Sequence record: SRR2962707_782
Reading direction: 5' to 3' (one strand)
Length of the DNA: 35,956 nucleotides
The position numbers were made by a program, and so were the translations under genes. Positions 9,487 to 21,867 of the stretch are shown piece after piece; the first letter of the stretch is position 1; every line of letters starts with the position of its first letter. The notes under the pieces were generated by a model. The model did not search any database. It had not been told where the DNA came from and saw nothing but the letters and a program-made list of their open reading frames with translations.

Positions 9487-9489
9487 CGT

Positions 9490-10269
9490 TTAGTGTCGCT
9501 CCAGATGGTGCTCGGCGCGCGGGCCATGGAAATAATCGACCAACCAGGGGTCGTCCGACGCCTGCAGCTCGGCCAGCGTGCCCACCTGCAGCAATCTGCC
9601 CTGTCCGAGAGCGGCGATACGGTCGCAGACCGTAACGAGGCTGTCGAGGTCGTGGGTGACCATATAGACGGTAAGCCCCAGCGCCGTCTTGAGGCTCAAC
9701 ACAAGTTCATCGAACCGGGCGGCCCCTATCGGGTCGAGCCCGGCGGTGGGTTCATCCAGGAAGATGACGTCGGGATCGAGCGCCAGAGCGCGCGCCAGGG
9801 CAGCCCGCTTGATCATTCCGCCTGACAATTCGGCAGGATAGAGGTTTTCGGCTTCAGGGCTGAGGCCGACGAGATCAATCTTGAAGCGGGCAATTTCGCG
9901 GCGCAGCTTTTTCGGGATATCGAAGTGCTCGCGCATGGGGAATTCGACGTTTTCGAGGACCGTGAGCGAGGAAAACAGCGCTCCTTGCTGGAACAGCACG
10001 CCCCAGCGGCGTTCGACGGCAACGCGATCTCGTGAGGACAGACCGGCATAGTCCTGGCCGAAGACCTCGATTGTGCCGGCGCGCTTGGGCAAAAGCCCGA
10101 TAAGCGCCCGCAAAGTCACCGATTTGCCAGAACCGGAGGGGCCGATGACGCCAAGTACCTCGCCCTTGCGGACGTCGAGCGTGAAGCCATCGATGACGTT
10201 GCGATCGCCAAAGCCAACCACGAGGTCGCGGATCGAGATGATGGGATCTGGGATTGCCGCGTCGACCAT
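9490..10269 (-). CDS. mlaF: MlaF-type ABC ATPase
   Basis: GPSGSGKS, LFQQGALFSSLTV, LSGGMIKRAALARA, DEPTAGLDP, VTHD. Confidence 0.92.
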   Translation of the reverse strand: MVDAAIPDPIISIRDLVVGFGDRNVIDGFTLDVRKGEVLGVIGPSGSGKSVTLRALIGLLPKRAGTIEVFGQDYAGLSSRDRVAVERRWGVLFQQGALFSSLTVLENVEFPMREHFDIPKKLRREIARFKIDLVGLSPEAENLYPAELSGGMIKRAALARALALDPDVIFLDEPTAGLDPIGAARFDELVLSLKTALGLTVYMVTHDLDSLVTVCDRIAALGQGRLLQVGTLAELQASDDPWLVDYFHGPRAEHHLERH

Positions 10270-10271
10270 GC

Positions 10272-11411
10272 CTAAACCCCGATGGCCGCAAAGAAAATGG
10301 CGAACAGGCCATCGGCAACGATGACCAGGAAGATCGAGCGCACGACCGAGGCCGTTGTGTGCCGGCCAAGCGATTCGGCGCTGCCTTTCACCTTGAAGCC
10401 CTCGTTGGTGGCGACCAGGCCGATGATGACCGCCATGAAAGGCGCCTTGACCATGCCCACCAGAAGCGTCTGCATGTTGAGCGCATCCTGCAACCGATCG
10501 AGAAAGATATCGAACGGGATACCACCATAGACCAGCGCCACGATGGCCGCGCCCAGCAGCCCCGACAGCGCCCCGATGAAGGCCAGGAACGGCAGTCCGA
10601 TCAGCAGCGCAATGATGCGCGGCAGGATCAGCACCTGATAGGGATCGACACCCATGACCTTGAGCGCGTCGAGCTCCTCGCGCATACGCATCGAACCCAA
10701 TTCGGCGGTAATCGCCGAACCGGACCGGCCCGCAATCATGATGGCGGCAAGCAGAAGCCCGACCTCGCGTAGCATCAGGATTGCCGCAAGATCGACCACG
10801 TAGATCGCCACGCCGAAATTGTTGAGCTGGAGAATGGATTGCTGGGTGATGATGGCGCCGACCACCACCGAAATCAGCATCACTATGGGCACGGCACGGA
10901 ACGCGATCAGATCGAGCTGATTGACCAGGGCCGCCCCCCGGAACGGCGCACGGAAGGTGAGCGTGGCGCCGGCAGCGGCCATCACCCGGCCCAGTACGGC
11001 GTGAATGGTAACCACATCGCCGAGCGCATTGGCGGTCATGTGGCCCAGCCCGTCGAACGGTCGCAAAAGCCAGGGTAGCGTAGTTTTGGCGACCGGCGCG
11101 TGCGGCTCAATGGCGTTGACGTGGCTGAGAAGCGCTTCCTGCGCCTTGGTGGCACCGGTGATGGCGGTTTGGACGCCCTGCCCCATTGCATCGCGGCGCC
11201 GAGCCAGCAGGAAGGCGCCGACCGTATCTAGCGCTGTTACGCCGGCCAGATTGAACTCTAGCCGGGACGGAACCGGGTGCGCCGCAAAGCCCGATTCGAT
11301 CCGCGACTGGATCTGCTGCGTCCATTGCGTGGTCCACGCCCCGGAAAGGCGCGCTACGAGAACACCGTCTGCACCGGACATCTCGATCTGGGGCTCATCG
11401 AGCTGGGTCAT
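10272..11411 (-). CDS. mlaE: MlaE-family permease with N-terminal STAS-like domain
   Basis: LREVG, AGRSGSAITAELGSMRMREELDAL, TTASVV, and STAS-like LDTVGA. Start 11411 is preferred; 11510 is possible. Confidence 0.88.
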   Translation of the reverse strand: MTQLDEPQIEMSGADGVLVARLSGAWTTQWTQQIQSRIESGFAAHPVPSRLEFNLAGVTALDTVGAFLLARRRDAMGQGVQTAITGATKAQEALLSHVNAIEPHAPVAKTTLPWLLRPFDGLGHMTANALGDVVTIHAVLGRVMAAAGATLTFRAPFRGAALVNQLDLIAFRAVPIVMLISVVVGAIITQQSILQLNNFGVAIYVVDLAAILMLREVGLLLAAIMIAGRSGSAITAELGSMRMREELDALKVMGVDPYQVLILPRIIALLIGLPFLAFIGALSGLLGAAIVALVYGGIPFDIFLDRLQDALNMQTLLVGMVKAPFMAVIIGLVATNEGFKVKGSAESLGRHTTASVVRSIFLVIVADGLFAIFFAAIGV

Positions 11412-11763
11412 GAAGTCTGCGCTTGTACTCCCGCGTGGGACGCCTCCCGAAACGGGCAATCCTCCCAGATTCCTTAACACGCGGAATTCGGCTTGTCCTG
11501 AGCCTGTCATGGACTTCCGCGCTCAAGTTACGCGTTGGGCGGGGGGTGATGCATTTGTGCAAGACTTGCGGTTCGATCAGTCGAAGGCAGACGATAGCGA
11601 TTCGGCGCGGCTCATTGAGGGCCACCACGCTTGCCGAGGGTGTGGCCGCCGAGCACGATCCAGATCGCAACGATTATCATTGCACCTGCCAGCAGAAGGT
11701 AAGCCCCATCCCTGCGCCCGATCGCTGCGGCGCGTAATTCTGCCTAATCCCCACAGACTCTGA

Positions 11764-12516
11764 TCAATTCGTGATGGATCGCATCAGGCCCTCGTAGAGC
11801 GTCCGGGTTTCGGCCGAGATCGCAACGTTGAGTTCGTGGCGGAGCTCGGTTTCGCAACGCTGGTAGACCTGCTTGAGTCTCGCGGCGTTGCGGCTCGCGG
11901 CAGCATCGATCATAAGAATACGGAACGCCTCTTCATTACAGGGGTCGACCGACAGGATTTCCTGGGCCAGGGCCCGGCGGGCCGGACCGTTCTTGCTTGC
12001 CCAGCTTTCGTCGCTAATAGATTGTGCCAACCGGTCCAGAAAGCGGCCCCGCAGTGTTTCACGCCATGTCCCGAGCCAATCCTCGAACTCGGGGCCGGAA
12101 TCGTGGATATCGGCCAGTAGCTCTCCGGGGTAGCTGCCCAGACGGACGGGCTGTCCTTGATCGAGAAGAATTCCCCAAAGCCGCTTGAGGTCCCAACTGA
12201 CCTGGGCGTCCTCGACCAGATAGACTGTGTGGAAATTGGATTCGATGAGCGTGAAGCCATATTTGGCCTGCAGGGCCCTGATGCGTGCCAGTGAACGGCG
12301 CAGATTGGCCGCTGCCCGATCTGCGTCGCGGGGATCGGACCAGAGCGCCGACCATAGCCTCTGGCGCGTCACCGAGCCATTCGTGCCCGCCAGCAGCAAA
12401 TAGGCCGCCACCTTGTAAAAGATTGTGGGCACACCCGACACAACCTTGCCGTCTACGACGATGACACAGGATCCGACGGTCGAAATCGCTATCCGTGTAT
12501 TGGCGCTGTGGATCAT
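11764..12516 (-). CDS. Stand-alone SARP-like regulator (wHTH + BTAD)
   Basis: AYLLL..VTRQRL..ALW..AAANLRRSLARIR (wHTH). BTAD: GELL..FEDWL..RE, DPCNEEAFR.LM, Y..C...L..EL.V..S.ET..LY. RBS GGAGG. Confidence 0.85.
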   Translation of the reverse strand: MIHSANTRIAISTVGSCVIVVDGKVVSGVPTIFYKVAAYLLLAGTNGSVTRQRLWSALWSDPRDADRAAANLRRSLARIRALQAKYGFTLIESNFHTVYLVEDAQVSWDLKRLWGILLDQGQPVRLGSYPGELLADIHDSGPEFEDWLGTWRETLRGRFLDRLAQSISDESWASKNGPARRALAQEILSVDPCNEEAFRILMIDAAASRNAARLKQVYQRCETELRHELNVAISAETRTLYEGLMRSITN

Positions 12517-12648
12517 GAACGAGGCACCTCCACTTTCGGCCTAGCGCAGGTGATTCGGAAGAGCTTTGCTATAAATCAAAAACGCTAAGCCAGGAGCGGC
12601 GGCGGGCGGCGATTAGCGCGTGCCTTCACTAGTTCCTGCGCTGCCAAC

Positions 12649-13146
12649 TCATGCGCTGCGACGCGGTTCTGCCGCGCCTTCATTCAGAAAATCGTGAATA
12701 TCCCTGTTGGTGGCGACCAGAACCTGGATTGCGTCCGAGAGGCGCTGAAATTCCTCATCATCGAGCGGCTCCACCTTGCCGTATCGAACGTTGCGCCCAA
12801 AATCGGCGATGCGCAGAAGTTCGGTGCGATCCATGTCGCCGTGCTCGTCGAACGAAAAGATGCTGTGGCTGTATTTGTTGCGGACCTTGGACGCCGCTTT
12901 CATCCGCCCCGAGATGGCCAGAACGCGGTCCTGAACCTGGGACGAAACCCCGGGAAGCTTAGACAGGCGCTCGATCAGATCGAGGCGGGCCCGGGTTGTG
13001 TTGAGTGTGAGATAGGTCACGATTGCAACGTTCTTTTCCACACCCATCAGAAGGCACATGACGTCGATGAGCAGGCTCTCGGTGTTGCTCCAGGTGTAAA
13101 CGAGCTTTCCGATCAACAGCAGCAATGTCTCTGTACGGGTTGACAT
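12649..13146 (-). CDS. Hypothetical helical protein with HEPN-like RNxxxH motif
   Basis: RBS GAGGA directly after the LuxR-type stop. Pattern IG.....WS..E followed by RNKYSH at aa 89-94. Confidence 0.75.
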   Translation of the reverse strand: MSTRTETLLLLIGKLVYTWSNTESLLIDVMCLLMGVEKNVAIVTYLTLNTTRARLDLIERLSKLPGVSSQVQDRVLAISGRMKAASKVRNKYSHSIFSFDEHGDMDRTELLRIADFGRNVRYGKVEPLDDEEFQRLSDAIQVLVATNRDIHDFLNEGAAEPRRSA

Positions 13147-13158
13147 GCCGTTCGTCCT

Positions 13159-13935
13159 CTATTGTGCAGCGTTACGGCGCGCGGACCCTCGCGGCTCGGG
13201 CGCCAGGCTGTGGAAAACTGCCGCCGCCTGCGTTCGATTGGTGACGTTGAGCTTGTTCATGAGGTTGTGAACGTGGACCTTTACGGTGTGCTCGGAGAGC
13301 TTAACGCGGTCCGCGATCAACTTGTTGGGCCAGCCTTCGGCAATCAGCGAGAGCACCTGGCGCTCGCGCGTTGTAAGATGGGCAAACTCGCCCGCCCGCC
13401 CGGTTGACGCAGCCGCTGCGGAGGTCCTGCCGACAGGCGTCCCCACACCAGAGCCCAATCGCGTCTGCAGCAAATCCTTGGCAAATCGCAATGGCCGCGA
13501 GCGCGCGACGGGAAAGAACTGGCCGCCACTGAGCACCAGCGATACGGCGGCAAGAAACACTTCGAGTTTCAAGGTCAGCGGAATGAAACCCTGGATCGAA
13601 GCGGCGTCGGCAAAGCCCCGCCAGTCGCCTTCCCCATCGGCGCGGTCGACCAGAAGGGCCAGCGCGGCTTCAGGGAAAATCTGCTGGGATTGCTCGATGC
13701 GTGTTGAGGGAATTTCGCCCGGCCGCACATGAACCAACAGAAGCTGGACGAAATGATCGGGGGCAGCGGCCTCGTCCACGTCTTCGCATATAACAACGTG
13801 AGCGCGCAGGTGGCTTTCGAGGTTTCGCGCCAACCCTTCGAACAGCGCTCCCTTGTCAGCATTGATCACTATGGCGGCCGACGGACCACCCTGATCGGGC
13901 AAGTGCCAATTCGGAGTAGAGAAAAGATCTGTCAT
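13159..13935 (-). CDS. LuxR/NarL-family regulator with degenerate receiver-like domain
   Basis: C-terminal HTH LTTRERQVLSLIAEGWPNKLIA...LSEHTVKVHVHNLMNKLNVTNRTQAA. The N-terminal REC-like region lacks an evident phospho-Asp. Confidence 0.88.
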   Translation of the reverse strand: MTDLFSTPNWHLPDQGGPSAAIVINADKGALFEGLARNLESHLRAHVVICEDVDEAAAPDHFVQLLLVHVRPGEIPSTRIEQSQQIFPEAALALLVDRADGEGDWRGFADAASIQGFIPLTLKLEVFLAAVSLVLSGGQFFPVARSRPLRFAKDLLQTRLGSGVGTPVGRTSAAAASTGRAGEFAHLTTRERQVLSLIAEGWPNKLIADRVKLSEHTVKVHVHNLMNKLNVTNRTQAAAVFHSLAPEPRGSARRNAAQ

Positions 13936-13989
13936 GGCCGCTCTTCCCCCATAGACGCCAATGCCGCTGGATCGTCACCGATCTAAATC

Positions 13990-14005
13990 TTAATGAGGTC
14001 TTAAC
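13990..14005. promoter_or_regulatory. CtrA-binding box TTAA-N7-TTAAC
   Basis: TTAA TGAGGTC TTAAC at 13990-14005 matches the established CtrA consensus exactly, in the divergent intergenic region. Confidence 0.75.
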
Positions 14006-14011
14006 GCACCC

Positions 14012-14032
14012 AGCGTGACTCAAGCGTGACTC
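14012..14032 (+). repeat. 10-bp direct repeat AGCGTGACTC x2 (11-bp period), each copy containing a GANTC site
   Basis: Copies at 14012-14021 and 14023-14032. Confidence 0.7.
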
Positions 14033-14142
14033 GGATGACCTATGAAACGCGTGCAAGGCTGGGCTTTTGCTGCAAAGGGGTAAAACCGTCACACAATCGC
14101 GGACTCTAAAGTATCGGTTTGGGCGCAGTTTTACCCATGCGA

Positions 14143-14207
14143 GTTAGCTCCAAGTGATAAGTTTTCCGCCTGAAACCTGTCTACCGGCACACCTGTGTTA
14201 GCTCCAA
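14143..14207 (+). repeat. 11-bp direct repeat GTTAGCTCCAA x2, 54 bp apart
   Basis: Copies at 14143-14153 and 14197-14207 upstream of the repeat-protein gene. Confidence 0.65.
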
Positions 14208-14363
14208 TTGTCGGCTTACCCAACGCCTAAGCAGACGCCATCCTTTGATGGTCCCGGAGCCTTTTGGCTGATCTCGGGACTGACACAAGCGGTACAGGAA
14301 TTGGCCTCGTTGCAGATGAAAGAGGCGCTCCGGCTACCGCTTCCATGAAAAGGGAGAACTGCC

Positions 14364-15689
14364 GTGGCTGACGAAGAGTATAATGGCCCCTATGTCGAAG
14401 ACACGACCAACAACGGAACCATCCAGGAGGACAGTGACTACGAAGTTGACGTCGAAGTCGAAGATTCGTTCAACGACAACAGCGAAGAGACCGACGTAGA
14501 AGTCGAGGTCGAAGACTCGTTCAACGACAACAGCGAGGAAACTGAGGTCGAAGTCGAGGATTCGTTTAACGACAACAGCGAAAACACCGACGTAGAAGTC
14601 GAGGTCGAAGTCGAAGATTCGTTCAATGACGAGTCGACCGAGATCGACACCGAAATTGAAGACTCGTTCAACAGCGAAGAAACCGACGTCGAAGTCGAGG
14701 TCGAAGATTCGTTCAACGACGAGTCCGTCGAAACCGACGACTCTTTCAACACCGACACAGAGACTGAAATCGAGATCGAGGAATCGTTTAACGACAACAG
14801 CGAAAACACCGATGTCGACGTAGAGATCGAAGACTCGCTCAACGACAACTCGACAGAGGTCGACACCGAAGTCGAGATCGAAGACTCGTTCAACGATCGC
14901 AGTCAGACCACCAATGTCGCCGCGAACTTCGCGCTGGAAGAAACCAACACGAACTCGCACAACACCAGCGATGACGACACCACGGAAGTCGATGTAGAGA
15001 TCGAGGATTCCTTCAACGAGGAAACCACCGAGATCGATACCGAGATCGAGGATTCCTTCAACGAGGAAACCGAAATCGACACCGAGATCGAGATTGAAGA
15101 CTCCTTCAACGATCAGTCCGACACCAACTCGCACAACGACAGCTCGACCAACACCGACACCGAGATCGAGACTGAAGACTCGTTCAACGTCGAAACCGAT
15201 GTCGAGATCGAGGACTCGTTCAACACCGAGACGACCACGACGGATGTCGACGTCGAGATCAAGGACTCTTTCAAGTCGTACGAAAATGCTTTCAACGACT
15301 CCAGCGAGAGCTTTGGCGAAATCTCGGTCGACTTCGACAACGTCTTCAACGGCGCCTTCGGCGGTGACGGCTCGGGCGATGGCTTTGCCATCAATCAGGT
15401 CGCCGACATCGTGGACAACGACTCGCTCTGGGATGTTCAGCAGAACAACTCGGGTGGCTTCGAGATGTCAGCGAATGGCGGTATTGCGGCCCAGGTCGCC
15501 TGGGACGACGTCGACGATCCGTTCGACGGCACGACGGTGGCCGATGCGAGCGCTCAGCTTCAGGGCACAGCGTTCAACCTCGATATCGTTCTGGGTTCGA
15601 ACCTGCAGCAGAACGCTGTGGACGTTTCGATCGTTGGCGGCTCGGCCGACAACAACGATACCACGACGACCAGCGGCGACAGCTTCTGA
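14364..15689 (+). CDS. Highly acidic EDSFN-repeat protein, probable T1SS substrate
   Basis: GTG start with RBS AGGGAG. 13 exact DSFN motifs plus about 7 variants. Only 3 Lys/Arg, no Cys and no signal peptide in 441 aa. First gene of the T1SS operon. Confidence 0.88.
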   Translation: MADEEYNGPYVEDTTNNGTIQEDSDYEVDVEVEDSFNDNSEETDVEVEVEDSFNDNSEETEVEVEDSFNDNSENTDVEVEVEVEDSFNDESTEIDTEIEDSFNSEETDVEVEVEDSFNDESVETDDSFNTDTETEIEIEESFNDNSENTDVDVEIEDSLNDNSTEVDTEVEIEDSFNDRSQTTNVAANFALEETNTNSHNTSDDDTTEVDVEIEDSFNEETTEIDTEIEDSFNEETEIDTEIEIEDSFNDQSDTNSHNDSSTNTDTEIETEDSFNVETDVEIEDSFNTETTTTDVDVEIKDSFKSYENAFNDSSESFGEISVDFDNVFNGAFGGDGSGDGFAINQVADIVDNDSLWDVQQNNSGGFEMSANGGIAAQVAWDDVDDPFDGTTVADASAQLQGTAFNLDIVLGSNLQQNAVDVSIVGGSADNNDTTTTSGDSF

Positions 15690-15705
15690 TTGAAAAGCAA
15701 TTGTG

Positions 15706-15733
15706 CGTCCCGCGCGGGCTTCCGCGCGGGACG
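15706..15733 (+). terminator. Intra-operon GC-rich hairpin (mRNA stabiliser or leaky terminator)
   Basis: Perfect 12-bp stem CGTCCCGCGCGG/CCGCGCGGGACG with a GCTT loop. No U-tract follows. Confidence 0.65.
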
Positions 15734-15764
15734 TCAAGCGCCAATCATGATCGTCTAAAGAGGG

Positions 15765-17729
15765 GTGACGGTGTTTTCCAACGGAGACTATCTCACCGAA
15801 AAGATTGCACACTTCATTGGCCACTTCGAAATTGCCGAGGAAGCTGCGCGCCTGAGACAGCAGCCCGAAGGCTTCGACAAGGCCGGGCAGGATGCTGTCG
15901 GTCGGCCGCTTGAAGGGCCGACGCCGGTGCCGTTTGTCGCGGAGGATGTGGACGTGGGGTATGTGCCCGGCGTCGACCATGCCCCCCAGCAAAACCATTC
16001 TGATTTGGTATTTGAAGGCGAGCCCTTCCAATTCGACCCGCCGATTATCACGGTTCCGTCCATGCGGATCGGCGCCCCGGCGCCCGGCGAGGCGGATATC
16101 GACGGGGTCTGGCAGGCGCCACACACCCTCCAGGCGGGAATGCCGCCGCCTTCGCTGATCTTTGTGGCTCAGCAGCACAAGTTTTTGTTCGACAACGACG
16201 TCGTCGTTATCGGTGAAGGCTATGACGGTCCCTTCCCGACAACGCCGAATTCGCTCGCGTCAGTCGACGCCCTCAGCGCGAAAGTCGCCGAGGTCCTGGC
16301 GCCGCTGGCCGAGCTACCGCTCGAAATGAACGAGGAAAATATCGCCCCGTGGGTCAAGAGCACCTCCAGCGCTGCCGACAGCGTGGAGGAGGCAACCGCC
16401 GCCGGTGAAACGCTCGAGGGGCAATGGGTAAACGGGGAATCGGCAGAAACAGTACCGGAACTGGTCGACCATCTTCCAAAGGCCTGGCAGGACCCTGAAA
16501 CAGATACGCCGACAACGTCGGACCCCATCATCATCGACGCCTCCGAGGCCCAAACGACAATGGATCTGCAGACAGGCGGCAACCTGTCGCTGAACCAGGC
16601 GACAATTATCAATGCCGGGCTCGTTGGGACCACTATGGCAGTGGAAGGCAATGTCTATGAACTGGACGTCATAATGCAGGTTAACGCCGTCCAGGATATC
16701 GACACGATCGACGAAGGGTTTGCGGTTCTGCCGGGCGCTGATATGGAAACCACGGCGACCAATGTCGCCCAGTTCATCAAGAGCACTACAGACATCGCGT
16801 CCGAAAGGGCTGACCTCAACCCCGAGACAATGCCCTCGGGTTGGCAGGTCACCATCGTCGAGGACGATCTCATCTTCTTTGAGTGGGCCTATCAGTACAA
16901 TCTGACCTGGGACAATGATTGCCTGGTCGCCACGGCAACAGGCACCACAACATTTGTGAGCACCGGCGCAAATGTCGGGTTCAATGCAGTATCTTTTTCC
17001 GATCTGGGTGCGATGTACGACCTGATCATGGTCGGCGGAAATCTGTACGACGCCAATTACATCTGCCAGACCAATATCGTCTACGACAACGACACGCTCT
17101 CCATGTTCGGCTCTTCTTTCGATCAGGCGGGCAGCACGACCACGGGCGGCAACGTACTGTGGAACCAGGCCCTCATCCAGAACATGGGCGCCGCTGACTG
17201 GAGCCATGATCTACCCGCCCACTACCAGCAGGCCATGGACGCGCTCGACGCTGGCAATGCCGCCATGCCCGGCGGGTTCGCCACCGACAGCGGCTTCGCC
17301 GGGTATGGCGATCTCAATGTCCTCTACGTCAAGGGCAACATCTTCGACATCAATTATGTCGAACAGGTCAACATCATCTCCGATGCGGACCACGTCGCAC
17401 TCTATGGGGCGGAACTGGCGCAATCGGCGGAATGGACCATTGCGACGGGGACGAACACCGCCGTCAACGTCGCTGCCATTCTCGACCACGACAGCAATGG
17501 CAGCGTGAGCTACGTCGGCGGCGAGGTCTATTCGCAGGCGCTCTTGATCCAGGCCGATTTTGTCGAAACCGGTGCCGGCGAACTCACGGGCGAAGCCCCC
17601 CTAGCAAATGAAGTCATCGCTTTCCTCACCGACGACGATCTGTCGGCCAGCGACATGCCTGCCATCGACAATGTTGGCGCGCTTGAGTCCGGTCCGATCG
17701 TCGACGTGATGGATTCCATTCTCGCGTGA
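15765..17729 (+). CDS. Acidic multi-module protein, probable second T1SS substrate
   Basis: 654-aa ORF without signal peptide, with recurring Q-x5-D-x-D and TG-x-N-x3-N motifs. GTG 15771 after GAGGGG may be the true start. Confidence 0.85.
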   Translation: MTVFSNGDYLTEKIAHFIGHFEIAEEAARLRQQPEGFDKAGQDAVGRPLEGPTPVPFVAEDVDVGYVPGVDHAPQQNHSDLVFEGEPFQFDPPIITVPSMRIGAPAPGEADIDGVWQAPHTLQAGMPPPSLIFVAQQHKFLFDNDVVVIGEGYDGPFPTTPNSLASVDALSAKVAEVLAPLAELPLEMNEENIAPWVKSTSSAADSVEEATAAGETLEGQWVNGESAETVPELVDHLPKAWQDPETDTPTTSDPIIIDASEAQTTMDLQTGGNLSLNQATIINAGLVGTTMAVEGNVYELDVIMQVNAVQDIDTIDEGFAVLPGADMETTATNVAQFIKSTTDIASERADLNPETMPSGWQVTIVEDDLIFFEWAYQYNLTWDNDCLVATATGTTTFVSTGANVGFNAVSFSDLGAMYDLIMVGGNLYDANYICQTNIVYDNDTLSMFGSSFDQAGSTTTGGNVLWNQALIQNMGAADWSHDLPAHYQQAMDALDAGNAAMPGGFATDSGFAGYGDLNVLYVKGNIFDINYVEQVNIISDADHVALYGAELAQSAEWTIATGTNTAVNVAAILDHDSNGSVSYVGGEVYSQALLIQADFVETGAGELTGEAPLANEVIAFLTDDDLSASDMPAIDNVGALESGPIVDVMDSILA

Positions 17730-17746
17730 CCAGCGAAAGGTCGGCC

Positions 17747-20089
17747 ATGTCTGCCATTCTCGAAACCAATCCTGGCTCTGACGGACCCTCGCGTGCCTCG
17801 CGGAACGGCCAGGCAATCGACGCGGCAGTGGCCAAAATCGACATGGCCACGCATCAGCTTCGCGCCATTGCGCAGGGCGAAGAAGAACCGCAAGTCGTAC
17901 CCATCATAAAATCCATACAGCCGCAGCATTCCGCAACCGTAACTCCGCTTCGGCCCGTACAGAACGATGCGCCGGCCGGTGCCGCTCGCCCGGCATCACT
18001 TGCCACGCCACCGGCGCCCGAGCCTACGGCCAGGGAAATCCTGCTCCAGGGGAAACCCGTTCCGATCACACCTGCGGACCCCGCGCCAGTACCCCGGCCG
18101 GAAACACCGGTTCAACCGGCGGCGCGCCAGGCGGAGCCGTCAGGTCCGGCTGCCCCGCAGGTCAAGCGCCCCGAACAGGAAGCGCCTCCGGCCCCGGAGG
18201 CAAAGCGCCCCGAGCAGGACAGGATCGAAGTGCGCGATCCGGCCAGCGAGCGCATCCCGGAAATGGCGCCGACACTGGAAGGTGAACGGGCGACGGTCCG
18301 GCGCCCTTCGGGCAGTGGCGGCGGATCCGGCACGCCCCCGGGCGGTGGAGGCGGCAATGGCGGCTTTCACAGGCGCGCCGAAATGCCCAATTTCGCCGAG
18401 AGTTTTCAGAACGGCGTCAATGCGGTACGGCGCAACATCGCCATGGTGATGGTGTTTACAGTCGCCACCAACATCCTCGTTCTCGCCATCCCGATCTATC
18501 TGTTCCAGATTTCTGACCGTGTACTCACCAGCCGTTCGGTGGATACGCTCGTCATGCTCACCATTGTCGTGGTCGGCGCTGTCCTGCTGCAGGCCGTGCT
18601 CGATGCTATCCGACGTTTCATCCTCATGCGCACGGCTGTCGAGATCGAAGTTCAACTCGGCGCGCCGGTCCTGAGCGCCGCCGCAAGGTCCTCACTCAAT
18701 GGCACGAGCAAGGACTATCACGTGCTCGGCGACCTGCAGCAAATGCGATCATTTATCACCTCGGGCACGCTGATCTCTATCCTCGACGCGCCTCTGGCAC
18801 CGCTGTTCATTGCCGCAATCTTTCTCATCCACCCCCATCTCGGTGCCATCGTCGTCGCGGCCTGCCTGGCCCTGCTGATCTTTGCGACGATCAACCAGAG
18901 GATGACATCCCGGCATTTTTCCGATGCGAACGGCTTTCTCAGCCGCGCCACGCTCCATCTCGATTCCATGTCGCGAAATGCTCAGATCATCAATGCGCTC
19001 GCCATGATCCCCGAGGCTGTCAGGATATGGGGCCGCGACACCGCGCTGTCCCTGCGCGCCCAGGTCCGGGCCCAGGACCGCAATATTGCGATCGCCACCT
19101 TCTCCAAAGCCTTCCGGATGCTCACCCAGGTCGCGATGCTGGGCTGGGGCGCCTATCTTGCGCTATTGGGCGAAATGACGGGCGGCATGGTAATTGCCGC
19201 CTCGATCATCGCGGCCCGCGCCCTGACGCCAATCGAAGGCGCCATCGAGGGGTGGCACCATTTCACGAGCTTTAGAGGCTCCTTCCGCAAGATCCGCGGC
19301 CTGCTGCAGAGTTCGCCCTTCAACACCCCGCGCCTGTTGCTGCCCCAGCCGCAAGGCCGGCTCGATGTCGAACGCATCCTCTACGTGCCCCCGCCGAACA
19401 AGAAGGTGATCCTCAATGGCATCTCCTTCTCGCTCGCTCCGGGCGAATCCATGGCGATCATCGGCAATTCGGGGTCGGGCAAGACCACGCTGGGCAAGAT
19501 GCTGGTGGGATCGGTGCTCCCGACATCGGGCAGCGTGCGGCTCGACCTTATGGACTTGCGCAACTGGGACATGCGCCAGTTCGGCGAAAACATCGGCTAT
19601 CTGCCACAGGACGTTCAGCTCTTTCCCGGGACCATCAAGGCCAACATCGCCCGTATGCGCGATGATGCGACCGACCGCGACATTCACGCGGCGGCCGTTC
19701 TTGCCGATGTGCATGAGATGATCGCCTCTTTCCCGCAGGGCTATGAAACCGTGGTGGCCGCCGACGGCGCGCCGCTCTCGGGTGGACAAAAGCAGCGCAT
19801 CGCCCTGGCGCGCGCCTTTTTTGGCAACCCGAAACTCGTGGTACTCGACGAGCCCAACTCCAACCTCGACTCGCCGGGCGAACAGGCTTTGGCCAAGGCC
19901 CTGCTGCACGCCAAAAAGCAGAACATCACCACCGTGACCATCACCCAGCGCACGGCGCTCTTGAGCTACGTCGACAAGATCATGGTGCTCGCCAACGGCT
20001 CGGTGGGCATGCTTGGCGAGCGCACAAAGGTACTCCAGGCCCTCACACAGGGCGGCGGCACCGCCGGCCCTTCCATTCCCAAGGAGTGA
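17747..20089 (+). CDS. Type I secretion ABC permease/ATPase (PrtD/AprD-like) with long Pro-rich N-terminal extension
   Basis: PIYLFQISDRVLTSRS.DTL, GGMVIAASII..RAL.PIE, GNSGSGKT, IGYLPQDVQLF.GTI, LSGGQKQRIALARA, LDEPNSNLD. ATG 17747 has RBS AAAGG; the GTG at 17726 is an alternative start. Confidence 0.93.
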   Translation: MSAILETNPGSDGPSRASRNGQAIDAAVAKIDMATHQLRAIAQGEEEPQVVPIIKSIQPQHSATVTPLRPVQNDAPAGAARPASLATPPAPEPTAREILLQGKPVPITPADPAPVPRPETPVQPAARQAEPSGPAAPQVKRPEQEAPPAPEAKRPEQDRIEVRDPASERIPEMAPTLEGERATVRRPSGSGGGSGTPPGGGGGNGGFHRRAEMPNFAESFQNGVNAVRRNIAMVMVFTVATNILVLAIPIYLFQISDRVLTSRSVDTLVMLTIVVVGAVLLQAVLDAIRRFILMRTAVEIEVQLGAPVLSAAARSSLNGTSKDYHVLGDLQQMRSFITSGTLISILDAPLAPLFIAAIFLIHPHLGAIVVAACLALLIFATINQRMTSRHFSDANGFLSRATLHLDSMSRNAQIINALAMIPEAVRIWGRDTALSLRAQVRAQDRNIAIATFSKAFRMLTQVAMLGWGAYLALLGEMTGGMVIAASIIAARALTPIEGAIEGWHHFTSFRGSFRKIRGLLQSSPFNTPRLLLPQPQGRLDVERILYVPPPNKKVILNGISFSLAPGESMAIIGNSGSGKTTLGKMLVGSVLPTSGSVRLDLMDLRNWDMRQFGENIGYLPQDVQLFPGTIKANIARMRDDATDRDIHAAAVLADVHEMIASFPQGYETVVAADGAPLSGGQKQRIALARAFFGNPKLVVLDEPNSNLDSPGEQALAKALLHAKKQNITTVTITQRTALLSYVDKIMVLANGSVGMLGERTKVLQALTQGGGTAGPSIPKE

Positions 20090-20092
20090 TCG

Positions 20093-21427
20093 ATGACGCT
20101 TGTGTCGGCCGGTAAGGCCCCCGAATGGTACTCGGATGTTCCGCGCTCGATCCGTCTTCAGACGCTACTGGGGCTTGGGCTGATCCTGGTGACCTTCGGC
20201 GGGTTCGGCTTATGGGCCGGCACTGCCCCCCTCGCCTCAGCGGTGATCGCTCCGGGCAGCTTCGTTGCCACGGGCAGCAACAAGATCGTCCAGCATCTCG
20301 AAGGCGGGATCATTCGCCAATTGCTCGTCGAGGAGGGTGAAAGGGTCGAGGCCGGACAGGATCTCGTGTATCTCGACAGCACGACGGCGCTCGCCAATGC
20401 TCGCAGCATCGAGTTGCGCATTATCCGGCTCGAGGCCATGCAGGCCCGCCTCCAGTCCCAGTTCGAGGGGGCGGCTGCCTATAGTCCCCCTGACTCTGTG
20501 CTTGCCCGCCTCGACGACCCCGAAGTGCGCTCCATCAATGACGGGCAGCGCGAAAGTTTCGACACGGCCCGCACGGCACTACAGAGCCGGCTCGACGTGC
20601 TGGGCGAAAACGTCAGCGCACTTGAATTCCAGCACACCGGCATCACCGCACAGCTCGACTCCTTTGAACGTCAGCGGGTGCTGCTGGAAGAGGATCATGG
20701 GATTCAGGCAGCTCTCTACGCCAGACAATTGACGACGCTGTCCAATGTCAACGCGCTGCAGCGCTCGCTCGCAGATGCCGACGGGGATATCGCCCGACTC
20801 GAATCCGAGGCAGGGATGACGCTGGCCCAGATCGAGCAGCACCGCCGCGAGATCGACCAATTGGTCTCTGCGGACCGCCAGGCCGCCCTTGGTGAATTGC
20901 AGCAGGTCTCGGCCGAACTCGAAACGTTGCGCGAAGAGATGAACAGCGTTCAGAATATTCTTTCACGCACGGTGATAACGGCACCCGCCGCCGGCATCGT
21001 CGTGCGGCTCTATTACCATACATCCGGCGGCGTCATCGAAAGCGGCCGCCCGATCATCGAAATCCTGCCCTCCGACGTGCCGCTGATCATCGAAGCGCAG
21101 ATTCCCCGCATGCAGATCGACGAGATCGAACTGGGCCAAAAGGCCGACGTCCGGCTTTCGGCCCTCAATCAGCGCACCACCCCATTGCTCGAAGGTGAGG
21201 TCGCCTATGTCTCGGCCGATTCCATCAACGATGGCGGTTCGGGATCGAACGAAATCTATATCGCGCGGGTGACCATCCCCCCCGACCAGCTCGAACGCGT
21301 TTCGGGGTTCACCCCCACCCCCGGCATGCCGGCCGAGATCCTCATCGAAACCGACGCGCGCACATTCTTTGAATATTTGAGCAAGCCCATCGTCGACAGC
21401 ATGGCCCGCGCCTTCAGAGAACAATGA
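20093..21427 (+). CDS. HlyD-family type I secretion membrane fusion protein
   Basis: N-terminal TM, KIVQHLEGGII..LLVEEG..V..GQ, coiled coil, ITAPAAG.V, PGMPAE..I, FFEYL.KP. Confidence 0.95.
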   Translation: MTLVSAGKAPEWYSDVPRSIRLQTLLGLGLILVTFGGFGLWAGTAPLASAVIAPGSFVATGSNKIVQHLEGGIIRQLLVEEGERVEAGQDLVYLDSTTALANARSIELRIIRLEAMQARLQSQFEGAAAYSPPDSVLARLDDPEVRSINDGQRESFDTARTALQSRLDVLGENVSALEFQHTGITAQLDSFERQRVLLEEDHGIQAALYARQLTTLSNVNALQRSLADADGDIARLESEAGMTLAQIEQHRREIDQLVSADRQAALGELQQVSAELETLREEMNSVQNILSRTVITAPAAGIVVRLYYHTSGGVIESGRPIIEILPSDVPLIIEAQIPRMQIDEIELGQKADVRLSALNQRTTPLLEGEVAYVSADSINDGGSGSNEIYIARVTIPPDQLERVSGFTPTPGMPAEILIETDARTFFEYLSKPIVDSMARAFREQ

Positions 21428-21500
21428 CGCCGGATTCGGTGATCCCTGCCCCAAAAATCGCGCGCTCAGGCGCGGATGTTGGCTGGATGATCTTGTCAAT

Positions 21501-21541
21501 CTTCCAGGCAGCCTAGCGCGACTTCCAGGCAGCCTAGCGCG
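21501..21541 (+). repeat. Perfect 20-bp tandem duplication CTTCCAGGCAGCCTAGCGCG (21-bp period)
   Basis: Copies at 21501-21520 and 21522-21541, with a partial third copy CTTCCTGGC at 21552-21560. Confidence 0.85.
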
Positions 21542-21867
21542 GCGCATAACGCTTCCTGGCCGTGTCAGGCGAGTTGTGGCCGGTACAGGCCGCGACCGTT
21601 TTCGCTGCGCAAGTCTATCTATCTGGCCCTCCGATCCACTTCGAGTCGAGCTCACGGAGTTCGCAAGGGGCCGCCTTCGGCCACTCGGCCGTACTCCAAG
21701 GCGGTTGGTCGGCATTTCACTCGTTCTGCCCTAAGGGCCTGTCACGCCTGCGCTATCGGGACGGGCACCAGCTGTAACCACGGCCGTTTGCAAAATTTGG
21801 GTTGACGGAGCAATGGCGATATGCAGTGTTCTTTTGGCGCCTAAAAAACACAAAGGTAGGAATTCTG

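What the first reader, a model, noticed from the sequence alone, without database searches (positions are those of the whole stretch)
15384..17486. The 654-aa protein is about five copies of the C-terminal module of the repeat protein
Seen: the 441-aa protein ends with one pair of motifs, B = QVADIVDND (Q-x5-D-x-D, aa 345-353) and A = LGSNLQQNAVDV (G-x-N-x3-N-x-[AV]-x-[IFV], from aa 410). The 654-aa protein has B five times (QHKFLFDND 137, QVNAVQDID 305, QYNLTWDND 377, QTNIVYDND 435, QVNIISDAD 534). These alternate with A four times (TGGNLSLNQATI 270, TGANVGFNAVSF 400, TGGNVLWNQALI 460, TGTNTAVNVAAI 561) plus a partial ATNVAQF near 331. The G-x-N-x-Q-x-N spacing recalls Fap/curli Asn/Gln-ladder motifs. 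Inference: the B-A module is the polymerisation unit and possibly the C-terminal secretion signal. The larger protein is then a covalently pre-stacked template, cap or anchor, and the EDSFN array is a displayed passenger.
Basis: partly seen in the sequence, partly recalled or inferred. Interest (0 to 1): 0.85.

Follow-up and report, generated by a model that had tools for sequence, protein, structure and literature searches.

The report
Repeat-built secreted protein beside its partner
The 654-residue protein belongs to a widespread, unnamed family built from five stacked beta repeats, always encoded between a low-complexity protein and a type I secretion pump, and the neighbour's tail carries a weak copy of half of one such repeat.

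Summary
In the 654-aa protein (P1) they mark real repeats: five imperfect units plus an extra half unit. Repeat-to-repeat profile matches reach E 2e-14, and the key G/N/Q/D residues are invariant across the 19-sequence alignment A1.

P1 has no Pfam or NCBIfam model. A profile search finds 769 clusters, and 194 stretches in species genomes encode a relative; the 80 kept are all Hyphomicrobiales. A confident model (pLDDT 88) has no solved look-alike. Only FapC (Z 3.3) and CsgA (Z 2.5) reach Z 2 among 48,161 chains.

The gene order, low-complexity protein (P2), P1, PrtD-type ABC exporter, HlyD adaptor, holds in 75 of 80 loci; the other five are cut off upstream.

The link to the 441-aa protein is weaker than claimed. 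Only its last ~55 residues are conserved family-wide. They resemble the A half of one repeat (hhalign E 5e-5, 21 columns, above 60 of 60 shuffles). The B motif is lineage-specific and not above chance.

Most likely this is a non-RTX type I cargo pair. Docking or templating of P2 on P1 is plausible but untested.

The parts
14364..15689 (+). P2: 441-aa, Cys-free, pI 4.05 low-complexity protein; probable type I secretion cargo
   Evidence: ORF. No Pfam or NCBIfam family passes. Composition. A homologue lies directly upstream of the P1 homologue in 75 of 80 loci.
14448..15224 (+). EDSFN acidic tandem-repeat array (periods of 36, 45, 51 and 96 nt)
   Evidence: Tandem Repeats Finder. The array varies by lineage: 35 acidic/N-S-rich against 33 Gly-rich among 68 full-length homologues.
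15396..15422 (+). B-like motif QVADIVDND (P2 residues 345-353)
   Evidence: Shuffle probability 0.15-0.24. A Q-x5-D-x-D motif is present in this region in 34 of 70 homologues.
15516..15686 (+). P2 C-terminal tail (residues ~385-441). This is the only part conserved across the whole family. It holds the A-like half repeat at 15594-15626 (residues 411-421).
   Evidence: 78-sequence alignment. Core G-x-N-x3-[NH] occurs in the last 70 residues of 69 of 70 homologues. hhalign against repeat R3 gives E 5.2e-5.
15765..17729 (+). P1: 654-aa repeat protein, pI 4.05, 2 Cys. The real start is probably the GTG at 15771.
   Evidence: ORF. Family searches. Homologues begin at the third codon, and the Atlas record starts at residue 3.
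15786..15869 (+). Conserved N-terminal helix (residues ~8-35), followed by a low-confidence proline-rich linker to about residue 125
   Evidence: H16, F17, G19 and R29 are invariant. Helix 10-31 in the model; pLDDT is under 50 for residues 1-129.
16146..16211 (+). R0: extra B-type half repeat (residues 128-149), with no A half
   Evidence: hhalign R0 against R2 and R3 gives 92-93% probability. Q137, D143 and D145 are invariant.
16554..16712 (+). R1: repeat 1 (residues 264-316), A at 271, B at 305
   Evidence: hhalign R1 against R3: E 2.1e-14, 98.3% probability. Four strands in the model.
16746..16931 (+). R2: repeat 2 (residues 328-389), degenerate A (ATNVAQF), helical insert, B at 377
   Evidence: This is the weakest repeat: against R1 and R3 the probability runs from 15% to 76% depending on direction.
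16947..17108 (+). R3: repeat 3 (residues 395-448), A at 401, B at 435. This repeat is the one most like the P2 tail.
   Evidence: The best P2-tail HMM domain falls at relative position ~0.6 of the protein (where R3 lies) in 131 of 225 family members.
17127..17405 (+). R4: repeat 4 (residues 455-547), A at 461, ~35-residue helical insert, B at 534
   Evidence: hhalign R4 against R1 gives 96% probability. Helices at 485-495 and 503-506.
17427..17573 (+). R5: repeat 5 (residues 555-603), A at 562; the B half keeps Q596 but has no D-x-D
   Evidence: hhalign R5 against R1 and R3 gives 94-95% probability. G562, N564, N568, A570, G586, Y589 and Q596 are invariant.
17583..17726 (+). P1 C-terminal tail (residues 607-654). 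It is predicted disordered, with conserved L-x2-E-x2-A-F-L and a conserved terminal D-V-M-x-S-h-L-A. It is the candidate type I secretion signal.
   Evidence: pLDDT under 50 for residues 604-654. L613, E616, A619, F620 and D647 are invariant. The role as a signal is inferred.
17726..20089 (+). Type I secretion ABC permease/ATPase of the PrtD type, with a ~230-residue N-terminal extension that matches no family. Its start overlaps the P1 stop.
   Evidence: TIGR01842: 711.3 bits against a cut-off of 510, matched over residues 232-773. Found in 79 of 80 loci.
20093..21427 (+). HlyD-family type I secretion periplasmic adaptor
   Evidence: TIGR01843: 376.3 bits against a cut-off of 208.65. Found in 78 of 80 loci.
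13159..13935 (-). LuxR/GerE-type regulator, divergently oriented
   Evidence: GerE 4.7e-21. A homologue lies in 51 of 80 loci.
12649..13146 (-). Conserved 165-aa protein of unknown function
   Evidence: No Pfam family passes. A homologue lies in 68 of 80 loci.
11764..12516 (-). BTAD-domain regulator (Devosiaceae-type loci only)
   Evidence: BTAD 1e-06. A homologue lies in 10 of 80 loci.

Best explanation
Shown:
- The 654-aa protein (P1) belongs to a large, unannotated Hyphomicrobiales family.
- Its layout is a conserved N-terminal helix, a proline-rich linker, an all-beta core, and a disordered conserved C-terminal tail.
- The core holds five imperfect repeats plus one extra B half. Each repeat has an A half (T-G-x-N-x3-N-x-A-x-I) and a B half (G-[ND]-x-Y-x3-I-x-Q-x-N-x3-D-x-D).
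- It is always encoded between a low-complexity protein (P2, here the 441-aa EDSFN protein) and a PrtD-type ABC exporter with its HlyD adaptor.

Inferred, likely:
- Both very acidic, Cys-poor proteins, which have no evident leader, are non-RTX cargo of that exporter. An outer-membrane channel would be encoded elsewhere.
- Outside the cell P1 folds into a wide, flat, solenoid-like stack, with one repeat per layer and in-register Asn, Gln and Asp positions.

Inferred, tentative:
- P2 does not carry a full repeat. Its only universally conserved piece, the last ~55 residues, contains one A-like half repeat.
- That tail lies where the export signal is expected. After export it may add as an edge strand to an open end of the P1 stack.
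- P1 would then be the base or nucleator, and the variable P2 array the displayed part.
For: Repeats: hhalign R1-R3 E 2.1e-14; R1-R4, R1-R5 and R3-R5 91-97% probability; R0-R2 and R0-R3 92-93%. Motif residues are invariant.

Family size: 769 cluster representatives at E<=1e-3, of which 529 at E<=1e-30. 194 of 259 candidate stretches in species genomes encode a relative; the 80 kept are all Hyphomicrobiales.

Synteny: a P2 homologue lies directly upstream in 75 of 80 loci, and the other 5 loci begin less than 700 nt before P1. The ABC gene is in 79 of 80 and the adaptor in 78 of 80.

Co-occurrence: the P2 tail and P1 are found in the same 5 of 31 related genomes, one copy each and adjacent.

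Exporter type: TIGR01842 at 711 bits and TIGR01843 at 376 bits, both above their cut-offs.

Cargo-like features: pI 4.05 for both, 2 and 0 Cys. No RTX or other Pfam family is found in P1, P2 or six P2 homologues. A TolC-type gene exists in the nearest genome G001.

Fold: the core model has pLDDT 88.3 and pTM 0.83, with four strands per repeat. The Foldseek list is dominated by beta-helices and solenoids, headed by CsgA and FapC.

Tail resemblance:
- hhalign of the P2 tail against R3: E 5.2e-5, 67% probability.
- The observed score of 24.2 exceeds 60 of 60 column shuffles, whose maximum is 18.2.
- The P2-tail HMM scores P1 family members about 5 bits above real background ORFs. Only 2.2% of 1163 background ORFs reach the P1 median. 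The best domain falls at relative position ~0.6, where R3's A motif lies, in 131 of 225 members.
- Tail-to-R3 similarity is slightly higher within a genome than between genomes: 17.0 against 15.4 BLOSUM units, with 0 of 5000 permutations reaching it.
Against: - The P1-P2 resemblance is short and weak. BLASTP gives E 0.34.
- Small-alignment hhalign gives 4.4% probability.
- With deep alignments only 21 columns align, with a 9-residue gap, and only to R3. R1 gives 8%, R4 3% and R5 0.7%.
- Ungapped identity averages 5.4 of 23 positions. Per-sequence HMM scores are near 0 bits.
- The within-genome excess is tiny (0.1 identities), and the permutation test ignores shared ancestry and shared composition.
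- B is absent from 36 of 70 P2 homologues.
- P1's own C-terminal 48 residues carry no A or B motif, so the motif is not a common export tag.
- No secretion, binding or fibre data exist for any member in the sources I searched. I could not inspect model coordinates, so the parallel stacking is inferred from strand pattern and the kinds of Foldseek hits.
Confidence: 0.4

Rival explanations
1. Two independent cargo proteins of one exporter. P1 is a secreted repeat protein with its own job, such as adhesin, matrix or surface protein. The P2 tail is simply P2's secretion signal plus a small folding element. The A-like resemblance would reflect common constraints on beta-arc sequences that fold after type I export, or a very old shared unit. 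It would not reflect any contact between the two proteins.
For: The resemblance is limited to about 21 columns and one repeat. B is not conserved in P2. The tail lies where type I signals lie. P1 has a different, conserved C-terminal tail of its own. Asn/Gln/Gly-rich strand motifs recur in unrelated solenoids; for example, section 2.1 of PMC12392863 gives a FapC repeat motif of similar flavour.
Against: Type I signals are usually poorly conserved in sequence (recalled). Yet this tail is the best-conserved part of P2 across genera whose arrays are otherwise unrelated. P1 and P2 are never found apart: 75 of 75 loci with upstream DNA, and the same 5 of 31 genomes. The similarity exceeds both shuffled and real-sequence nulls.
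Confidence: 0.35
2. P1 is not cargo but an accessory of the exporter. It could be a cytoplasmic holdase or adaptor that binds the P2 tail by strand complementation, keeps P2 export-competent, and hands it to the ABC protein.
For: P1 is conserved over its full length and has a conserved N-terminal helix. Its stop overlaps the ABC start. The ABC protein has an unusual ~230-residue N-terminal extension that could receive a partner. The tail-to-repeat resemblance fits recognition.
Against: pI 4.05, only 2 Cys and a disordered, conserved C-terminal tail ending in hydrophobic residues are typical of cargo. Dedicated cytoplasmic chaperones of this size are not a known feature of PrtD-type systems (recalled). 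A five-layer beta stack with invariant D-x-D motifs suits folding outside the cell.
Confidence: 0.1
3. The pair is a surface-retained two-protein toxin or bacteriocin, like the Caulobacter CdzC/CdzD system. The conserved 165-aa protein would be the immunity factor.
For: Cdz is a type I-secreted two-protein system that forms SDS-resistant surface aggregates (PMC5380434: abstract and passages). The cluster is accessory: 4 of 18 genomes of the genus carry it. A small conserved protein of unknown function is linked in 68 of 80 loci.
Against: No glycine-zipper motif or other Pfam family was found in P1 or P2. The best NCBIfam match of the ABC protein is the PrtD subfamily; the peptide-cleavage bacteriocin ABC model TIGR01193 scores far below its cut-off (176 against 523.85 bits). 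[quoted passage not shown]
Confidence: 0.08

Closest known systems
Fap functional amyloid (FapC major subunit, FapB nucleator) of Pseudomonas
   Same: Both have imperfect repeats that each form one cross-beta layer, with arrays of conserved Asn and Gln (PMC12392863 abstract and section 2.1). Both have two neighbouring genes sharing a repeat type. FapC is the top structural hit for P1, though faint: Z 3.3, rmsd 5.2 A over 79 residues.
   Different: There is no sequence-family match. Fap repeats are 38-39 residues, with three in both FapB and FapC. Here the units are 46-90 residues, five in P1 and at most half to one in P2. Fap proteins leave through the fap operon's own machinery (fapA-F), not a type I system, and no fap-like genes are in the window. 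Z 3.3 is too low to claim a shared fold.
Curli (CsgA major subunit, CsgB nucleator; CsgG channel)
   Same: Both are strand-arc-strand repeat stacks with Asn/Gln ladders (recalled). CsgA structures are the first Foldseek hit (8c50, E 0.02) and the second VIA hit (8enq, Z 2.5, rmsd 3.0 A over 69 residues).
   Different: No curlin repeat is detected by Pfam. No CsgG/E/F genes are present; export is by ABC plus HlyD. The repeats are about twice as long. The presumed subunit P2 is mostly a disordered array with one half repeat, not a five-repeat homologue of P1.
RTX proteins and other PrtD-type type I cargo (proteases, lipases, HasA)
   Same: Gene adjacency to a PrtD-type ABC and a HlyD adaptor. 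Very acidic, Cys-poor, no evident N-terminal leader, disordered C-terminus. A repeat block lies just before the C-terminal tail and could fold after export, as RTX blocks do (recalled). RTX block V structures appear low in the Foldseek list, at E 1.3-7.6.
   Different: No GGxGxD nonapeptide or HemolysinCabind match is found in P1, P2 or six P2 homologues. The repeat here is a 46-residue A-B unit with invariant N, Q and D-x-D positions.
Amyloid signalling motif pairs in adjacent genes (HET-S/NWD2 in fungi; bacterial Bell/NLR pairs)
   Same: A short motif of about 20 residues at the end of one protein recurs in the product of the neighbouring gene, where templating passes a fold from one to the other. 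I saw only the search listings and the starts of the abstracts of PMC4344463, PMC3321046 and bioRxiv 10.1101/2020.01.06.895854.
   Different: Those systems are intracellular and involve an NLR/STAND receptor and a cell-death effector. No such domains are found here, and the context is a secretion operon.
Caulobacter Cdz contact-dependent bacteriocin; Ehrlichia acidic tandem-repeat type I substrates
   Same: Cdz has two cargo proteins of one type I system that aggregate on the producer's surface (PMC5380434: abstract and passages). Ehrlichia TRPs are acidic tandem-repeat proteins exported by a type I system in another alphaproteobacterium (PMC3417381: listing and start of abstract only).
   Different: Cdz proteins are glycine-zipper proteins that carry leader peptides (passages). 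TRPs are host-directed effectors with no P1-like partner. No sequence relation was found.

Membership tests
PrtD-type type I secretion system (exporter genes) | ABC permease/ATPase of the PrtD subfamily | tested here: met
   TIGR01842 at 711.3 bits against a cut-off of 510.15. The models for HlyB (270 against 725), LssB (362 against 693) and bacteriocin ABC (176 against 523) are below their cut-offs.
PrtD-type type I secretion system (exporter genes) | HlyD-family periplasmic adaptor encoded beside the ABC gene | tested here: met
   TIGR01843 at 376.3 bits against a cut-off of 208.65. Adjacent in 78 of 80 related loci.
PrtD-type type I secretion system (exporter genes) | TolC-type outer-membrane channel available in the genome | tested here: inconclusive
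   None in the window. The window's own assembly is not held. The nearest genome G001 has one 449-aa frame with two OEP (PF02321) repeats above the cut-off.
RTX type I cargo | GGxGxD nonapeptide repeats (Pfam HemolysinCabind) | tested here: not met
   No such hit at E<=1 in P1 or P2, nor at E<=0.1 in six P2 homologues, including Gly-rich ones.
Type I secretion cargo in general | Encoded beside its exporter; acidic; few Cys | tested here: met
   Synteny. pI 4.05 for both, 2 and 0 Cys.
Type I secretion cargo in general | No N-terminal signal peptide | not tested
   No signal-peptide predictor was run. By eye, neither N-terminus shows a hydrophobic leader.
Type I secretion cargo in general | Functional C-terminal secretion signal; export dependent on the ABC/adaptor pair | not testable with these tools
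   The evidence is indirect only: the last 51 residues of P1 are disordered yet conserved, and the last ~55 residues of P2 are conserved.
Curli (CsgA/CsgB) | Curlin repeat recognisable by sequence profile | tested here: not met
   A Pfam-A scan of P1 and P2 at E<=1 gives no curlin repeat.
Curli (CsgA/CsgB) | CsgG/CsgE/CsgF export genes nearby | tested here: not met
   A Pfam scan of 29 window ORFs shows none. The neighbours are the ABC/HlyD pair, regulators, Mla-like genes and peptide ABC transporters.
Curli (CsgA/CsgB) | Strand-arc-strand beta-solenoid fold | tested here: inconclusive
   CsgA 8enq: Z 2.5, rmsd 3.0 A, 69 residues aligned. 8c50: Foldseek E 0.02, with TM about 0.06.
Fap (FapB/FapC) | FapBC repeat and fapA-F operon | tested here: inconclusive
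   No profile hit to any Pfam or NCBIfam family, and no match to solved FapC by sequence. I did not have the authors' FapBC_repeat HMM. No fap-like neighbours. Structural match is Z 3.3 only.
Amyloid signalling pairs (HET-s/NWD2, bacterial Bell/NLR) | Short shared motif at the termini of adjacent gene products | tested here: inconclusive
   The motif is shared between the P2 C-terminus and internal P1 repeats at E 5.2e-5 over 21 columns. It is not terminal in P1.
Amyloid signalling pairs (HET-s/NWD2, bacterial Bell/NLR) | NLR/STAND receptor partner | tested here: not met
   No NACHT, NB-ARC or other STAND domain in P1 or P2.

The most novel reading that the evidence does not exclude
This would be a third, type I secretion-dependent route to functional-amyloid-like surface fibres, alongside curli and Fap. 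P1 would be exported as a covalently pre-stacked five-layer nucleator, possibly held at the cell by its conserved N-terminal helix and long linker. The ~55-residue tail of P2 would be both export signal and a single cross-beta layer. It would add onto P1 and then onto itself, building a fibre whose surface is a brush of lineage-specific acidic or glycine-rich arrays.
Probability: 0.15. Interest if true: 0.85.

Novelty: new variant of a known kind. Interest (0 to 1): 0.6.

Why it matters
Type I secretion is usually discussed in terms of RTX proteins. Here a dedicated PrtD/HlyD pair is tied, in at least 75 species genomes of plant-, soil- and sea-associated Hyphomicrobiales, to two cargo candidates with no RTX repeats and no family model. 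The genera include Devosia, Phyllobacterium, Mesorhizobium, Ensifer/Sinorhizobium and Nitratireductor.

One candidate has a confidently predicted repeat fold without a solved counterpart. If the two proteins assemble with each other, this would give a tractable system for templated assembly after type I export. It could also be a surface structure relevant to attachment in rhizobia and marine algal associates. Even if they do not assemble, the family deserves a name and a model in the domain databases.

Tried and rejected
- Complex prediction of P1 125-610 with P2 300-441 gave no verdict: scores 0.09 and 0.02 against a mark of 0.34, alignments not used, partner fold uncertain. It counts neither for nor against binding.
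- Fold searches with the whole 654-residue model were dominated by its N-terminal helix. I refolded the core alone.
- No solved chain reached Z 5 against the core model, and no Foldseek match reached E 0.001. This does not prove that the fold is new.
- A sequence profile search of solved structures found nothing related; the best hit was a lactate dehydrogenase at E 0.09.
- Expression: two RNA-library runs hold the locus. Their contigs cover genes and spacers of the whole 10.5 kb evenly at about 10x, so DNA carry-over cannot be excluded and nothing is concluded.
- Names: UniRef and Atlas labels such as 'type I secretion protein' and 'putative fibrinogen-binding protein' are automatic and were not used as evidence.
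- Literature: three full-text searches found no paper on this family. This is not proof that none exists. Supplementary files were not consulted.
- The genome search on the window's own assembly failed because it is not held. I used the nearest genome and relatives instead.
- I considered the P2 Gly-rich arrays of Mesorhizobium/Ensifer-type loci as hidden RTX repeats. Pfam finds none.

Full report
THE LOCUS

The finding spans the end of a 441-aa ORF (P2, 14364-15689, +) and most of a 654-aa ORF (P1, 15765-17729, +). Directly downstream lie a 787-aa ABC protein (17726-20089) and a 444-aa adaptor (20093-21427). The ABC start overlaps the P1 stop.

NCBIfam places these two in the type I secretion families. 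The ABC protein matches TIGR01842 (PrtD subfamily) at 711.3 bits against a cut-off of 510. The adaptor matches TIGR01843 at 376.3 bits against a cut-off of 209.

Upstream on the other strand are a LuxR/GerE regulator, a 165-aa protein without a family, and a BTAD regulator. The rest of the window holds Mla-like genes, peptide ABC transporters, dehydrogenases and regulators. There is no outer-membrane channel. The nearest held genome has a TolC-type gene elsewhere.

P1 and P2 have no Pfam or NCBIfam family above threshold. Both have pI 4.05, with 2 and 0 cysteines.

THE OBSERVATION

In P1, none of 5000 shuffles reaches four A or five B motifs. The motifs are not isolated words. In an alignment of 19 homologues the G, N, Q and D positions of each copy are invariant. 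Profile-profile comparison of the repeat segments gives:
- E 2.1e-14 (98%) for R1 against R3.
- 91-97% probability for R1-R4, R1-R5, R3-R4 and R3-R5.
- 92-93% for the half unit R0 against R2 and R3.
- R2 is the most degenerate repeat.

Among 225 family members, 171 have exactly five B motifs and 224 have at least four. So P1 is a real repeat protein with this layout: B0, a helical insert, A1B1, A2B2, A3B3, A4B4 (with an insert), then A5 with a decayed B.

In P2, the single A has shuffle probability 0.005. The single B has probability 0.15-0.24, so it is not above chance on its own.

HOW BIG AND HOW OLD IS THE FAMILY

A word-indexed search found 19 full-length relatives, all unnamed or 'hypothetical'. 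A profile search of 1.84 billion cluster representatives found 769 at E<=1e-3 and 529 at E<=1e-30, nearly all matching end to end.

In one-genome-per-species contigs, 194 of 259 candidate stretches encode a relative. The 80 kept are all Hyphomicrobiales: Devosia, Phyllobacterium, Mesorhizobium, Ensifer/Sinorhizobium, Pararhizobium, Nitratireductor, Aquamicrobium, Mycoplana and others. Database names such as 'type I secretion protein' are automatic.

Within the window's own genus the cluster is accessory. 4 of 18 genomes carry it, and 5 of 31 relatives overall.

GENE NEIGHBOURHOOD

An HMM of the P2 C-terminus hits an ORF ending just before the P1 homologue in 73 of 80 loci. Two more loci (L070, L072) have such an ORF with a recognisable tail that the narrow HMM missed. 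The remaining five loci start less than 700 nt before P1. So P2 is present wherever it could be seen.

Homologues of the other genes occur as follows:
- ABC gene: 79 of 80 loci.
- Adaptor: 78 of 80.
- 165-aa gene: 68 of 80.
- LuxR: 51 of 80.
- BTAD: 10 of 80.

The P2 tail and P1 occur in exactly the same 5 of 31 related genomes, once each and adjacent.

WHAT P2 REALLY SHARES WITH P1

P2 homologues differ greatly. Among 68 full-length ones, 35 have acidic or Asn/Ser-rich arrays like the EDSFN array here. The other 33 have arrays with more than 25% glycine. Neither kind matches RTX or any other Pfam family.

Only the last ~55 residues align across all of them. This is a hydrophobic-polar strand ending in G-A-N-L-Q-[QG]-N-x-V-D-x-T-V-V-G-G, followed by a short acidic end. 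The core G-x-N-x3-[NH] is in 69 of 70 homologues.

The direct comparisons are weak:
- BLASTP gives E 0.34.
- Small-alignment hhalign gives E 0.009, 4.4% probability.
- With 78 tails against 225 P1 sequences, the tail matches repeat R3 at E 5.2e-5 and 67% probability, over 21 columns with a 9-residue gap.
- The other repeats are below 10% probability. The B region matches R0 at only E 0.011.

Three controls:
- The observed score of 24.2 exceeds all 60 column-shuffled tails, whose maximum is 18.2.
- A tail HMM scores P1 sequences about 5 bits above 1163 real background ORFs, of which 2.2% reach the P1 median. It lands at relative position ~0.6, where R3's A motif lies, in 131 of 225 members and at ~0.4, where R1's lies, in 41 of 225.
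- Tail-to-R3 similarity is a little higher within a genome than between genomes (17.0 against 15.4). No permutation reaches this, but the effect is 0.1 identities and the test ignores relatedness.

My reading is this. The A half-unit resemblance is real but too short to prove common descent. The B resemblance is not established. 'Five copies of the C-terminal module' overstates it: P1 has five units of its own kind, and P2 carries about half of one.

THE FOLD

The full-length model is confident only for residues 130-606. Refolding residues 255-610 with 107 sequences gave pLDDT 88.3 and pTM 0.83. Each repeat shows four strands: a short one, the A strand, a short one before the G-G-[ND] turn, and a long B strand. 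Helical inserts sit in R2 and R4.

Against 48,161 representative solved chains, only two reach Z 2:
- FapC (9u4u): Z 3.3, rmsd 5.2 A, 79 residues.
- A CsgA fibril (8enq): Z 2.5, rmsd 3.0 A, 69 residues.

Foldseek's non-significant list is headed by CsgA (E 0.02) and FapC (E 0.05). It then runs through SufD, tapirin, pectinases, ice-binding proteins, tailspikes and RTX block V, which are all beta-helices or rolls. A second look at those chains changes nothing.

I infer a wide, flat, solenoid-like stack with one repeat per layer and in-register Asn, Gln and Asp columns. I could not inspect coordinates. The low Z values neither establish kinship with functional amyloids nor prove a new fold.

The FapC paper reports repeats of 38-39 residues that each form one cross-beta layer, held by conserved Asn and Gln, with a motif of similar flavour (PMC12392863: abstract and section 2.1).

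MECHANISM

Three things are shown: the architecture, the family, and the invariable P2-P1-ABC-adaptor order.

Likely but inferred: both proteins are cargo. The grounds are their acidity, few cysteines, no leader evident by eye (no predictor was run), disordered conserved C-termini, and a dedicated exporter. The terminal D-V-M-x-S-h-L-A of P1 recalls the acidic-then-hydrophobic end of PrtD-family substrates, but that comparison is from memory only.

Tentative: the P2 tail doubles as an edge strand that docks on P1. The main argument is that a stretch in the signal position is far better conserved than the rest of P2, resembles a P1 half-layer, and never occurs without P1. The invariant D-x-D motifs suggest calcium-assisted folding outside the cell, as in RTX proteins. 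That too is recalled and inferred.

A further speculation concerns P1's conserved N-terminal helix and ~90-residue linker. They could keep P1 attached to the cell after C-terminus-first export, as N-terminal retention modules do in large type I adhesins (recalled).

RIVALS

- Independent cargo with a convergent or anciently shared motif (0.35).
- P1 as an accessory holdase (0.10).
- A Cdz-like surface toxin pair with the 165-aa protein as immunity factor (0.08). See PMC5380434 (abstract and passages).

The interaction prediction gave no verdict. RNA-library contigs covered everything evenly, so they say nothing about expression.

COMPARISON AND NOVELTY

The exporter is an ordinary PrtD-type system. 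The cargo pair is not RTX, not curli and not Fap by any sequence test run here. It lacks the NLR partner of amyloid-signalling gene pairs.

Three literature searches found no description of the family. It agrees with my reading but is not independent evidence.

I rate this a new variant of a known kind: a type I secretion cargo pair with an undescribed repeat fold and a possible templating link.

Noticed in passing
window 17726-18420: The ABC exporter has a ~230-residue N-terminal extension rich in Pro, Ala and Gly. It matches no family; the TIGR01842 match starts at residue 232. ABC ORF lengths vary widely among related loci, from about 2.0 to 3.4 kb. It could be a cargo-docking region.
   Followed up: no
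window 12649-13146 (-): A 165-aa protein with no Pfam family has a homologue in 68 of 80 related loci, on either side of the cluster. It is a candidate accessory, immunity or regulatory factor.
   Followed up: partly
loci L033-L080 (P2 homologues): In Mesorhizobium, Ensifer, Nitratireductor and related genera the EDSFN-type array is replaced by 550-714-aa proteins with 26-34% glycine. They keep the same ~55-residue tail. None matches RTX or any Pfam family.
   Followed up: partly
window 15765-15771 and 17726-17729: P1 probably starts at the GTG two codons downstream (15771). Homologues begin there, and the Atlas record starts at residue 3. The P1 stop overlaps the longest ABC start by 4 nt, which suggests translational coupling.
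   Followed up: no
window 14364-15689: The [DE]-S-F-N unit of the array recurs in the conserved C-terminal domain as NAFND, NVFNGAF and TAFNLD. The array may therefore have grown by duplication of sequence near the tail.
   Followed up: no
window 7819-11510 (-): An Mla-like transporter lies next to the cluster: a MlaE permease fused to an N-terminal STAS domain, an ABC ATPase, and a 555-aa MlaD-domain protein. I did not check whether it is linked to the cluster in other genomes.
   Followed up: no
window 11500-22000: Contigs from two RNA-library runs of one study cover the whole stretch at about 10x, with 1-3% differences. So a close relative of this organism is present in that material. Nothing can be said about transcription.
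   Followed up: partly
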